From contig OZ024755.1 in the NCBI GenBank assembly GCA_964016885.1, positions 23,994,001 to 24,058,000 of the forward strand: 64,000 nucleotides of DNA, given 5' to 3'. Below, one piece after another: positions 24,782 to 63,012 of this stretch. The DNA comes from Eledone cirrhosa (taxonomy: Eukaryota). The position numbers were made by a program, and so were the translations under genes. Below the pieces are notes generated by a model that saw nothing but the letters and a program-made list of their open reading frames with translations, was not told the origin of the DNA and ran no database searches. Positions within the stretch are counted from its first letter, which is position 1; each line of letters starts with the position of its first letter.

Positions 24782-24909
24782 AGTTTTAATATAGATGAGA
24801 TTCTACAGGACTAGAACTGTTTCATTCTTTAGAAATCATCAGGAATTCCTGATGATTTCTAAAGAATGAAACAGTTCTAGTCCTGTAGAATCTCATCTAT
24901 ATTAAAACT
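24782..24909. repeat. Perfect 128-bp palindrome, no spacer (centre GGAATTCC)
   Basis: Left arm 24782-24845 is the exact reverse complement of 24846-24909; each arm carries CTGATGA-TTTCT-AA-AGAAT-GAAAC. Confidence 0.95.
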
Positions 24910-32968: not shown

Positions 32969-33089
32969 ACGAAGGAAGTGTGGTAAGGAACCAGGTGGAC
33001 CATAATGCACCAGAGTATTCGAAATGGCTTGAGCTCTGTTGTCGGAGCCCTGAACCTTTTCCTATATATATATATATATATATATATAT

Positions 33090-33299
33090 AACGAAGGAAA
33101 TGTGGTAAGGAACCAGGTGGACCATAACGCACCAAAGTACTCGATACTTGAATTACTACTGATTTTTGACAATCACTTTGACCATATATGGAATTACCCC
33201 TTGAGAAGATCGGCTATTTAAATACCAGGATAAATTTTCATTTAGTCCAGAATTAGCCGTCGAAACGGCTTGAGCTCAGCTGTCGGGGTCTTACTGGTT

Positions 33300-34957: not shown

Positions 34958-35718
34958 ATTAATAAAATTATTAATAACTCCATATTTACCTGTGTATAAG
35001 TTTGGATAAGATGTTTAGGTATAATCTGGAAGATAATATCATAAAAAAAAGATAACTAACTGCTTGAAGGTTTCTTGACTGTGTCATAGAAATTCTGACA
35101 ATAATTCCCAACATCTATGTGAACTGAGAAAAGTAAAATAATTGTGTTCGCAGAAACACTACAAGAAACTAAGCTAAGGGAGCCTCTAAATTGCTAAAAA
35201 TAATAATTAACTTTCTGAGAAAGACAAGATGGAGAAAACCAGGGAGAAGACAAGACACAGAGAAGACGAACAAATAGGCATTGAGGAGGTCACAGAATGT
35301 GTGACAAAAGAACTTCAACGAAATAACCAACAACAAATAATGATGATAAAGATGAAATTTAAGTCAAATAGTGCAGGTGTTTTTATTAGCAAAATGACCA
35401 TCCCTAAATATAATAATATATGTTTCAATGCATGATTTTTACATCAAGAATCTTGCAAAACAAATACATAAACGTACATATATATATATACACATGACAA
35501 ACACAACAAAAAATACACTAAAAACACAGGGAAGATGGAGAAGAATTTTAAGAAAAAGAGGAAGCCCCAAAACAGATAATCGTGAAAATTAAAAGTGAAA
35601 ATGATATGGTGCATGAGTTTCTTTCTATTGGCAATATTGGCAACATAACCATCCTCTAATATAACAATATACACACACATATATATATATATACAATACA
35701 ATGGGAGGAAACAATAGT

Positions 35719-35760
35719 GTCACTGATGATTTCACAGGTGTGCAATGAAGGAACTCTGAG
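35719..35760 (+). ncRNA. Degenerate minimal hammerhead (family H-E)
   Basis: GTCA-CTGATGA-TTTCACA-GG-TGTGCAAT-GAAG-GAAC-TC^TGA; GAAA changed to GAAG. Confidence 0.5.
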
Positions 35761-36066
35761 AGACTATATATTTATATATATATTTATATGTATATATATA
35801 TTTTTAACTGTTGGTCAATTAATGATAAACATTGATTGCCAGCTAAATTAACTATAGGGATATAAAATATATGGGAGCGAAAACCAACCCAAACCAAACA
35901 GTCAGTGTGTTTTATTATATATTTCTGGCAATATTGATTGTCCCCAAATATATTGATTGTCCCCAAATATAATGATTGTCCCCAAATATAATATTTTATA
36001 TATATATATATAAGTCCATTCAGTAAGTTAGTAATTTATCAAGTTAGTCAGTCCAACAATTCCAGG

Positions 36067-36300
36067 TTTAAGCCTTTCGATACCAACCCGCCTGAAACTG
36101 TCTGTGGTTCTCTGAGACTAAGATGGTTATTCTAAAGAGTTTATGTTTATATAAAAGCCTTCCAACATAATTTTATATAAGAAACTTTGTTAAGTTATGG
36201 TCTAAACATCAACTTAATGATGAGAAAGTTATTTACATTAAAAAACCTCCAAGAATACTTTATTTTTTTCAAAATTTTCTTTTAAACCACAGGGAGTGTC
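36067..36300 (+). mobile_element. Second piggyBac-type MITE family P2 (degenerate)
   Basis: TTAAGCCTTTCGATACCAACCCGCC start resembles 48361 and 47610; related minus copies at 45644-45916 and 47286-47498. Confidence 0.55.
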
Positions 36301-36304
36301 AAGG

Positions 36305-36490
36305 TTTGCTCCCTGAAGAGATTTTACAGGCAAACAAAACTGGCAAGAAACCCAGGGTACCCTGAGTAAGTTGTTTGGATAACATCCATGAGCTTGGCTG
36401 ATCTCATTGGAGCCAGTTGCTACTGACAGGACCCACTGGAAGGAGTGTTTGAAGACTCTGCCCCAACAACCCTCTGTGGAAGAAGGAGAA
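36305..36490 (+). mobile_element. RTE (Rex3-like) LINE 3' end
   Basis: Homologous to 59230-59450. Confidence 0.75.
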
Positions 36491-36776
36491 GACAGGGAGT
36501 GTTGTTTATTAGAAATATGGTAACAAATGTGTTTCTTCCAAATCCTAAAATATTGATACTTACAATTAAAATATATAATCACACTTCTAATTATATTACA
36601 AATAAAAAATAAGAGCCTGTATAATTTTAATTAAATGTAGAAACCTAATCATTTTTTCTTCATTCACATATGTAAGTAATTTTATAATGTTTATTTTAGA
36701 TGAGGCTAATTGTAGACTGTTTACATTAGATGAAACTAACTGTTGGCTGTTTATATTAAATGAAGCAAATTAAGTC

Positions 36777-36966
36777 TTAACTCTTTAGCATTTACATTAC
36801 TCTATATATACTATTGTACTTTCATGGTAAAGGCTTTATCTAACATAATTGTCTCACATAATATCGAATCTATGAGATTTTGGAGCAGCCAGTTATAGCT
36901 GATTTGAACGGAAAGAGATGAGAGAATTCTGACCGGCTATGGCTGATTTAAATGCTTAAGTTTTAA
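36777..36966 (-). mobile_element. piggyBac-type MITE P1, internally deleted
   Basis: TTAACTCTTTAGCATTTACATTACTC start. Confidence 0.8.
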
Positions 36967-37635
36967 TGGAAAACATTTCCAGTTCATTCTGTTTACATCT
37001 TTTTGTCATCCTAATCAAACAATTATTTGTGCACAAGAATAGAGGAGTCTGCAAAATATATATTTTTTAATTCCTTCAATTTTCATTAGGGTGTCTAGAT
37101 TCACAATAACTTATCTATTAGTTATTGTATTTAATATTTGTTGCTTAAAACATATAAACATGTATAAAACACGAGCACATTTTGTAAAGTGATTTGTAAT
37201 AAGAATAGCATCCAACTATCAAAGCCTTGCCAAAACTGGAACCTAAATAAACAAGATGAACACCACTGAAGCATTGGTGAGAGGACAGTAATTCTCATTA
37301 AGTACCGAATTGGTCCGAAACAACCTGTCCATCCCATGGAGAAACGGATGATAAATGATGAAGATGATGATGCTGGTGGTGGTGCTGGTGATAATGATGA
37401 TGATTTGCGCCAAATATTTCTGTTTCTAGGAGAGATTTCTTTGTATTCTTTAATATTGAATGTATACTACAAGAAGGAAGAAATTCTAAGATTTGTATAT
37501 ATATATATATATATATATTTCGTTTCTGAATTTGTTTAGCAAGATTCTTTATCTGAAATCGTGTGTTGAAACAAGAAACAAAATGGCGTAGGACAGAACA
37601 AAGGAGAGGCACAAAAACAAAGAAAAGAATCCCAA

Positions 37636-37678
37636 GTCACTGAAGAGGTCACAGAATGTGTGACGAAAGAACTTTGAC
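37636..37678 (+). ncRNA. Predicted minimal type I hammerhead ribozyme (family H-E)
   Basis: GTCA-CTGAAGA-G-GTCACA-GAATG-TGTGAC-GAAA-GAAC-TT^TGAC; stem I GTCA/TGAC, 6-bp stem II; decayed copy at 35277-35320. Confidence 0.75.
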
Positions 37679-37820
37679 AATATATAAACAATTATCTGGT
37701 TGTGGAACCAACCAACCAGAAATTTATAAATTCCTAAATTTATAAATTTATTATAATAAATTGAAGTGAAAGCAACTGGTGCGTGTGTTTCTTATTGGCA
37801 ACATGACCCTCCCAAAGTAT

Positions 37821-37896
<76 letters not shown>

Positions 37897-62669: not shown

Positions 62670-63012
62670 GGAGGCACATGGCTTAGTGGTTAGAGCATTG
62701 GCCTTGCAATCAAAAGGTTGTGAGTTCAATTCTCAGACTGGCGATATGTTGTTTCCTTGAGCAAGACACTTTATTTCACATTGCTCCAGTTTACTCAGCT
62801 GTAGAAATGAGATGATAGGGAGTGGGGTCCCTATCATTCCACTGCAAAGTGGTCGTGGAGGTGCCACGGCAAAAAAGCACCCAGCACTCACTGTAAATGA
62901 GGGTGGTGTTAGGAAGGGCATCCAGCTGTAGAAATCAAGCCAAAATCAGTTCCCGTCCCATCCTTGCAAGCAGGGAAAAAGCAGATGTAAAATGAAATGA
63001 TGATGATGATGA
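62670..63012 (+). mobile_element. Full-length SINE-B (tRNA head, CORE-like middle, family-C tail with (GAT)n)
   Basis: TGGCTTAGTGG A-box, GAGTTCAATTC B-box, CCTTGAGCAAGACACTT, GGAAGGGCATCC; flanked by a 100-bp direct repeat. Confidence 0.9.

What the first reader, a model, noticed from the sequence alone, without database searches (positions are those of the whole stretch)
35229..37830. Family H-E: three related minimal hammerheads, two in quasi-tandem arrangement
The copy at 37636-37678 is intact (GUCA-CUGAAGA-G-GUCACA/UGUGAC-GAAA-GAAC-UU^UGAC). The copy at 35277-35320 has C3U and CpG-type GAAA to AAAA damage. The copy at 35719-35760 has a different stem II but the same GUCA..GAAC-UH-UGA frame. 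A shared downstream tail (TTATTGGCAACATGACC.TCC..AA.TATAACAATATA) occurs at ~35385, ~35635 and ~37790, each ending at TA/CA runs. Two hammerheads ~440 nt apart on one strand is the layout that releases unit-length RNA in retrozymes (inference).
Basis: partly seen in the sequence, partly recalled or inferred. Interest (0 to 1): 0.7.

Follow-up and report, generated by a model that had tools for sequence, protein, structure and literature searches.

The report
Stacked Penelope retrotransposon hammerhead stubs
These predicted self-cutting RNA motifs are leftover ends of several subfamilies of one jumping gene (a Penelope-like retrotransposon) that lie side by side in TA repeats rather than forming a circular-RNA repeat, and the parent gene carries an unusually long insert in its copying enzyme that likely marks an undescribed branch of this class.

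Summary
The three motifs are real. They are minimal type I hammerheads in the terminal repeat (pLTR) of a (TA)n-targeting Penelope-like element (PLE), not a retrozyme. Copy C's 43-nt motif occurs exactly 5,085 times in the genome. Head-to-tail pLTR junctions number 0 and 0, against 637 inverted-junction matches. The cluster at 35219-35997 holds three different older subfamily stubs separated by TA runs: A, a hammerhead-deleted B, and D. A and D have damaged cores. U3 in A is inherited (19 of 19 relatives), not damage. The shared 'tail' is the start of the element's ORF. The parent encodes a telomerase-like RT plus a C-terminal GIY-YIG nuclease. Its RT motif A-B spacing is 126-132 aa, against about 59 in Neptune-type PLEs, a combination absent from the PLE survey I read. 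Relatives occur in octopus, sea cucumber, jellyfish and metagenomes, 11 of 28 with a minimal hammerhead. Cleavage and expression are untested. The scan reached the same PLE verdict on other DNA, but for other families.

The parts
35219..35419 (+). pLTR stub A, old subfamily (74-82% to nearest relatives)
35277..35319 (+). decayed minimal hammerhead A: inherited U3 with G8, CpG-decayed G12A, broken stem I; predicted cut position after 35315
35420..35477 (+). PLE tail of stub A (continuation into the ORF start), followed by a TA run to ~35490
   Evidence: 81% to the tail of C
35491..35670 (+). stub B: 3' UTR remnant plus pLTR of a sister subfamily whose hammerhead is deleted (junction about 35581/35582); ends in a CA/TA run
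   Evidence: relatives L059, L069 carry the hammerhead and RT-EN remnants
35692..35997 (+). pLTR stub D (81-86% to relatives) with its own degenerate end motif, triplicated as a 19-bp repeat at 35931-35990; TA run follows
35719..35760 (+). decayed minimal hammerhead D (four stem II changes including G10.1, and A15.1G); predicted cut position after 35756
37520..37572 (-). inverted tail arm ('long end') of insertion C, opening onto a TA run at ~37490-37519
37574..37828 (+). pLTR of young subfamily C (97-98% to best relatives), 'short end' into (TA)n at 37825-37894
37636..37678 (+). intact minimal type I hammerhead: 4-bp stem I, extra G after A9, 6-bp stem II, 2-bp helix III with non-palindromic AA loop, U17; predicted cut after 37674
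   Evidence: L035: same sequence opens a 1,235-codon reading frame

Best explanation
The three motifs are minimal hammerheads in the terminal repeats of different subfamilies of one Penelope-like retrotransposon lineage, left as 5'-truncated stubs that lie side by side in TA microsatellite and likely arrived by separate insertions. Shown: the full unit is 4,081 bp (L035) and encodes an RT with a C-terminal GIY-YIG nuclease; the hammerhead sits 128 nt upstream of the start codon; copies end at one of two AT-rich sites about 57 nt apart in the ORF start and run into (TA)n; two-armed insertions nearly always have one long and one short end. Inferred: the nuclease cuts (TA)n on both strands, each DNA end primes reverse transcription at one of the two internal RNA sites, and the two cDNAs join head to head. 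Each insertion leaves fresh TA runs that attract the next one, so unrelated subfamily stubs stack up. Also inferred: the hammerhead cuts slowly and only with help (a dimer or the element's protein), and the RNA that is copied is mostly uncut or re-ligated.
For: Dispersed young family with RT (YVDD) and GIY-YIG ORF upstream. AlphaFold model pLDDT 88.6; best folds are telomerase RT (Z 11.8, rmsd 4.3, 306 aligned) and, for residues 546-643, I-TevI (Z 10.1, rmsd 2.1, 88 aligned). B-, D- and CUGAGGA-type loci also carry homologous RT-EN remnants. 29 of 29 C copies end at the pLTR end (20) or tail end (9), followed by TA-rich sequence. Outward TA-flanked end pairs are long+short in 16 of 17 and 6 of 7 (binomial p 1.4e-4 for the first set, which includes the window's own copy). 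In the first 100 listed exact hits, all 14 adjacent pairs within 5 kb are on opposite strands (counted by eye). Same-strand neighbours of different subfamilies 288-298 nt apart recur (L128, L260) among 149 hammerhead-bearing loci. Depth in run X1 falls from the pLTR towards the 5' end. Position 17 is U, A or C at subfamily level and N7 is A, G or U, while the core and stem II arms stay fixed. The architecture matches Cervera and De la Pena 2014 (PMC4209133); two internal start sites bounding the tail and protein-assisted cleavage match Frangieh 2024 (PMC11167929).
Against: No cleavage or expression data. No A-type locus (0 of 19) showed an adjoining RT remnant of its own; A is tied to the lineage by its hammerhead, end motif and tail only. 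The order of insertion of A, B and D is not shown. Helix III is weak even as a dimer (+1.4 kcal/mol for the C hexamer), and subfamilies A/B spread with an uncompensated U3-G8 core, so cleavage may be negligible. Unlike PAc, both start sites here resemble the TA target. No fully open ORF of subfamily C was seen among the 7 loci extended.
Confidence: 0.93

Rival explanations
1. A decayed non-LTR retrozyme: A and D are remnants of a tandem unit of about 440 nt that was transcribed, cut at two hammerheads and circularised.
For: Same strand, 441 nt between cut sites, within the 150-450 bp range of metazoan retrozymes (PMC7229834 passages). Retrozymes are reported to derive from pLTRs (preprint 10.64898/2026.07.22.740005).
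Against: A and D belong to different subfamilies that share little beyond the hammerhead and end motif. No repeat of the interval. Zero head-to-tail junctions for subfamily C. All 50 intact D-type motifs are dispersed, with one inverted pair. Both cores are broken.
Confidence: 0.03
2. The solo pLTRs are an independent hammerhead-bearing SINE-like parasite mobilised in trans.
For: Short copies far outnumber long ones: 5,085 exact hammerheads against 416 matches for the tail-to-ORF junction. Hundreds of inversions sit within 30 nt of the pLTR start.
Against: Many of the 29 best C copies run upstream into the ORF with scattered break points, and depth declines gradually along the ORF, as expected for random 5' truncation.
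Confidence: 0.08
3. The element is copied from a circular RNA made by hammerhead cleavage of a 4.08-kb unit and re-ligation (the model proposed in PMC4209133). This is a variant of the best explanation.
For: 12 of 21 mapped tail-to-ORF junctions continue upstream through an intact hammerhead into the previous unit; two full-unit tandems 4,062 and 4,423 bp apart are listed.
Against: Read-through of genomic tandems gives the same picture. No 5' break fell at the cut site (0 of 21; the other nine lie 16-193 nt downstream). In PAc, hammerhead mutants still insert (PMC11167929).
Confidence: 0.25

Closest known systems
Minimal type I hammerheads of metazoan PLE pLTRs (Cervera and De la Pena 2014, PMC4209133; parts 1-2 of 4 read)
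   Same: Short helix I, long helix II, extra base between A9 and 10.1, G10.1-C11.1, rudimentary helix III, mostly solo copies, close pairs on opposite strands, U3-A8 covariation in relatives.
   Different: Here the helix III segment is GAAC or GAGC, not palindromic, whereas 11 of 11 metagenome relatives are palindromic (forced by the descriptor in 4 of them). Subfamilies A/B carry uncompensated U3-G8.
Nematis clade of C-terminal EN+ PLEs (Craig et al. 2021, PMC8557442; passages, section 12, supplement parts 1, 2, 53, 54, 58)
   Same: C-terminal GIY-YIG with CCHH motif, short CX4CxxC linker (5-7 aa gap against 23-29 in Neptune-type), hammerhead present; groups with a Nematis-like family of this genome in the tree.
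   Different: RT motif A-B spacing 126-132 aa against about 60 in the Nematis row of Fig. S1 (hand count); DKS instead of DKG; long branch from the Nematis-like rows.
Naiad/Chlamys PLEs (PMC8557442)
   Same: Insertion between RT motifs A and B; (TA)n targeting; inverted insertions and tails.
   Different: Their nuclease is N-terminal and they mostly lack canonical hammerheads; their spacing is about 84-119 aa (hand count). Here the nuclease is C-terminal and the insert is longer.
PAc, Poseidon PLE of Anolis (Frangieh et al. 2024, PMC11167929; parts 1-2 of 4 read)
   Same: Two internal RT start sites in the ORF start that bound the tail; AT-rich target; both strands cut and extended; hammerhead near the start codon.
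   Different: PAc start sites are reported as not homologous to the target; here both end in AT-rich sequence that can pair with (TA)n. The hammerhead here lies 128 nt upstream of the start codon.
Metazoan non-LTR retrozymes (PMC7229834 passages; preprint 10.64898/2026.07.22.740005 part 1 of 5 and passages)
   Same: Type I hammerhead, PLE ancestry, low GC.
   Different: Retrozymes are non-coding head-to-tail repeats with a hammerhead in each unit; none of that is found here.

Membership tests
PLE minimal type I hammerhead | Core CUGANGA...GAAA...UH with helices I and II | tested here: met
   Copy C; MFE fold forms helices I and II. Not met by the window copies A and D, met by intact D-type and CUGAGGA-type copies.
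PLE minimal type I hammerhead | Extra base after A9 and G10.1-C11.1 pair | tested here: met
   G in C/A, U in D
PLE minimal type I hammerhead | Located in the pLTR of a PLE | tested here: met
PLE minimal type I hammerhead | Palindromic positions 15.2-16.2 and loop 3 | tested here: not met
   G15.2-C16.2 pair is present but the loop is AA or AG
PLE minimal type I hammerhead | Self-cleavage as dimer or with protein | not testable with these tools
   needs an assay
EN+ Penelope-like element | Single ORF with telomerase-like RT and GIY-YIG nuclease | tested here: met
   (both Pfam hits below curated cut-off)
EN+ Penelope-like element | pLTRs from partial tandems, optional tail, inverted 5'-truncated arms | tested here: met
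Nematis clade | C-terminal EN with CCHH and short CX2-5CxxC linker | tested here: met
   against Fig. S2 rows
Nematis clade | No insertion between RT motifs A and B | tested here: not met
   126-132 aa in 77 of 120 homologs where both motifs were matched against about 60
Nematis clade | Monophyly with named Nematis RTs | tested here: inconclusive
   No named reference in the tree; groups with motif-defined Nematis-like rows L252/L256 at SH-aLRT 98 where long branches meet
Neptune clade | Long EN linker, DKG motif, about 59-aa A-B spacing | tested here: not met
Naiad/Chlamys | N-terminal nuclease | tested here: not met
   nuclease is C-terminal
Telomerase-type IFD | Insert structurally homologous to the TERT insertion in fingers | tested here: inconclusive
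   Same position and similar length; domain model aligns 167 of 244 residues to Candida TERT (Z 8.1, rmsd 4.4), tied with an RT of 142 aligned (Z 8.2)
Non-LTR retrozyme | Head-to-tail repeats of 150-450 bp, each with a complete hammerhead | tested here: not met
Non-LTR retrozyme | Non-coding | tested here: not met
   linked RT-EN ORF
Non-LTR retrozyme | Unit-length linear and circular RNA | not testable with these tools
   needs RNA

The most novel reading that the evidence does not exclude
The parent element represents an undescribed, widespread marine-invertebrate PLE clade, probably sister to Nematis, that combines a C-terminal GIY-YIG nuclease and minimal hammerheads with a telomerase-sized, conserved insertion in the RT fingers (A-B spacing 126-132 aa). 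This breaks the published split in which only N-terminal-nuclease PLEs carry such an insert. Its octopod branch also kept spreading with a non-palindromic helix III and, in older subfamilies, a U3-G8 core, a natural test of whether PLE hammerheads need to cut.
Probability: 0.5. Interest if true: 0.6.

Novelty: new variant of a known kind. Interest (0 to 1): 0.38.

Why it matters
As reported, the finding is ordinary: PLE terminal-repeat stubs, a known source of minimal hammerheads. It does show how TA-targeted stacking puts hammerheads of unrelated subfamilies a few hundred bases apart on one strand, which mimics retrozymes in sequence scans and could seed them. The parent lineage matters more. 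PLE RTs are the sister group of telomerase, and a C-terminal-nuclease clade with a telomerase-sized fingers insert bears on whether that insert is ancestral or was gained repeatedly. The clade is nearly invisible to Pfam (7 of 120 homologs with any precomputed domain, against all 120 Neptune-type ones). A young, 5,000-copy family with natural variants at positions 3, 7, 17 and loop 3 offers a ready panel for asking what PLE hammerheads do.

Tried and rejected
Retrozyme array: none found. Rfam: no hammerhead model matches these minimal motifs. Expression: no RNA holder listed; the four runs laid are contigs of unrecorded kind and cannot show RNA ends. PDB sequence search: no match. Structural homology of the insert to the telomerase IFD: not shown. 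A search of the 50%-representative protein library never ran, so the breadth of the clade rests. The effect of U3-G8 on cleavage rate was not found in the papers held; that it slows cleavage is recalled. No paper linking YY1 to Penelope promoters in the listing. Earlier-finding look-ups by sequence found no look-alike for the pLTR or the protein. 17 of 28 metagenome relatives gave no hammerhead under the descriptor; some are decayed or cut short.

Full report
Observation. An ungapped scan of both strands finds only these three members of the lineage in the window, plus four end motifs (35394, 35645, 35972, 37803) and two tails (35446 plus, 37549 minus). Only copy C passes a strict hammerhead descriptor. 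Rfam has no matching model. The genome G000 is 3.0 Gb; the nearest named protein relative is from Octopus vulgaris at 68%, so the host is probably an octopod.

Copy C. Window 37574-37828 is a young dispersed repeat: 858 candidates, 40 scored, the best mostly 95-98% identical. The 43-nt hammerhead occurs exactly 5,085 times, control 0. [quoted passage not shown] L035 holds a near-complete partial tandem with a 4,081-bp unit and a 1,235-codon frame interrupted by one stop. Of 29 C copies, 20 end at the pLTR end and 9 at the tail end, all into TA-rich sequence. The window copy is two-armed: an inverted tail arm and a pLTR arm, each ending in (TA)n. Outward TA-flanked end pairs are long+short in 16 of 17 cases in one set of loci and 6 of 7 in a second. 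An earlier scan note on another genome (e1-9942781) prompted this test.

The cluster. Searches with each piece split 35219-35997 into three stubs. A is old (74-82% to its best relatives) and has a tail. B matches another subfamily only over its last 70 nt, and its hammerhead is deleted relative to L059, L062, L068 and L069. D is a third subfamily whose pLTR runs to 35997. U3 is inherited in A (19 of 19) and B (5 of 5 with a hammerhead, of 11 loci); A's G12 loss is CpG decay. D's subfamily has the same stem II arms as C, and the window copy has lost four stem positions and A15.1. B-, D- and CUGAGGA-type loci carry homologous RT-EN remnants; none of 19 A-type loci showed one of its own. Similar same-strand neighbours of different subfamilies, 288 and 298 nt apart, occur in L128 and L260, among 149 hammerhead-bearing loci with 23 opposite-strand pairs under 1.5 kb, overlapping loci included.

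Retrozyme test. Patterns for a pLTR end or tail end followed within 30 nt by a pLTR start give 0 and 0. The same kind of pattern for the inverted junction gives 314+323 matches, most junctions counted on both strands. In the first 100 of 5,085 hits, all 14 adjacent pairs within 5 kb are on opposite strands (by eye). All 50 intact D motifs are dispersed, with one inverted pair. Tandems exist only at whole-element scale: 12 of 21 mapped tail-to-ORF junctions run upstream through the hammerhead into the previous unit, nine break 16-193 nt downstream of the cut, none at it (22 of 416 matches examined).

The ribozyme. Its anatomy is that of PLE minimal hammerheads (PMC4209133, parts 1-2 of 4): short helix I, long helix II, extra base after A9. 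U17 is common in Hydra-clade hammerheads (PMC8557442 File S2). Across subfamilies position 17 is U, A or C and N7 is A, G or U, while flanks diverge, which suggests constraint. Among 28 metagenome relatives with at least 150 nt of 3' sequence, 11 have a sense-strand minimal hammerhead, 0 antisense, 0 of 1,400 shuffles, with varied stem pairs and 3-8 as CG in 9 and UA in 2. Two departures mark this genome's lineage: a non-palindromic loop 3 with a weak predicted dimer helix, and U3-G8 in A/B. PMC3088659 (passages) reports U3-A8 as active; the effect of U3-G8 is recalled, not read. PMC11167929 (parts 1-2 of 4) found that a PLE hammerhead cuts only with the protein and is not needed for insertion in vitro. 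Cleavage here is untested.

The parent. The AlphaFold model (pLDDT 88.6) matches telomerase RTs best and I-TevI at the C terminus. Homologs at 32-68% over most of the length come from octopus, sea cucumber, a jellyfish and many unnamed assemblies. Motif A-B spacing is 126-132 aa in 77 of 120 homologs where both motifs were matched, against a median of 59 in 109 of 120 Neptune-type proteins. Hand counts on Fig. S1 of PMC8557442 give about 60 for Nematis, 84 for a Naiad, 119 for the longest Chlamys, 115 for human and 149 for Tetrahymena TERT. That paper states that canonical C-terminal-nuclease PLEs lack the insert and that such regions are sporadic in Coprina. The nuclease linker is short as in Nematis. 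In a 49-row RT tree without named references, the 26 clade rows form one side of a branch (SH-aLRT 100) and join two Nematis-like rows against Neptune-type and nuclease-less rows (98), where long branches meet. Homology of the insert to the TERT IFD is not shown. Paper searches found no description of this combination; Repbase, Dfam, Arkhipova 2006 and most subscription journals were not searchable, and the preprint's supplements were not seen.

Other papers: preprint 10.64898/2026.07.22.740005 (part 1 of 5 and passages) and PMC7229834 (passages) define retrozymes; PMC3846280 (passages). Earlier scan notes reach the same PLE verdict for other families; look-ups by sequence found no note on this family.

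Verdict. Real motifs of a known kind, and the retrozyme reading is not supported. The parent lineage is a variant of EN+ PLE that may be an undescribed clade (probability 0.5). Interest 0.38.

Noticed in passing
window 37577-37587; L138, L198, L135 3' regions: The pLTR opens with a CAARATGGCG motif, and similar words precede the hammerhead in some metagenome relatives. It resembles a YY1 site (recalled), a candidate internal promoter. Present within 95 nt upstream in 61 of 98 five-loop and 2 of 37 four-loop hammerheads.
   Followed up: partly
L035 4677-4740 (minus strand): Both insertion end points fall at an AT-rich word followed by CG in the ORF start, suggesting one recognition motif used twice.
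   Followed up: partly
window 12136 minus strand: Another intact-looking minimal hammerhead of an unrelated family with a CG loop 3.
   Followed up: no
window 24842-24849: Head-to-head pair of hammerhead-like cores on opposite strands.
   Followed up: no
window 33019-33045 and 33260-33286: Two copies of a repeat between TA runs that resembles a further hammerhead-type element also seen in L006.
   Followed up: no
window 62677-62740: tRNA-like match just above Rfam's cut-off, possibly a tRNA-derived SINE head.
   Followed up: no
G000:C1:132947034-132947570: A 46-bp tandem array (12 listed units) built from the tail/ORF-start segment of this PLE.
   Followed up: no
L252, L256, L242, L244, L036: The same genome holds a Nematis-like family (by motifs), Neptune-type families with long open frames, and a Hydra-like remnant.
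   Followed up: partly
L258-L282: Sister subfamily with A at the cleavage position and a changed loop II, about 1,400 copies.
   Followed up: yes
L035 ORF N-terminal half: Long asparagine/threonine/histidine-rich low-complexity stretch, like the N-rich inserts in rotifer PLEs (PMC3846280 passages).
   Followed up: no
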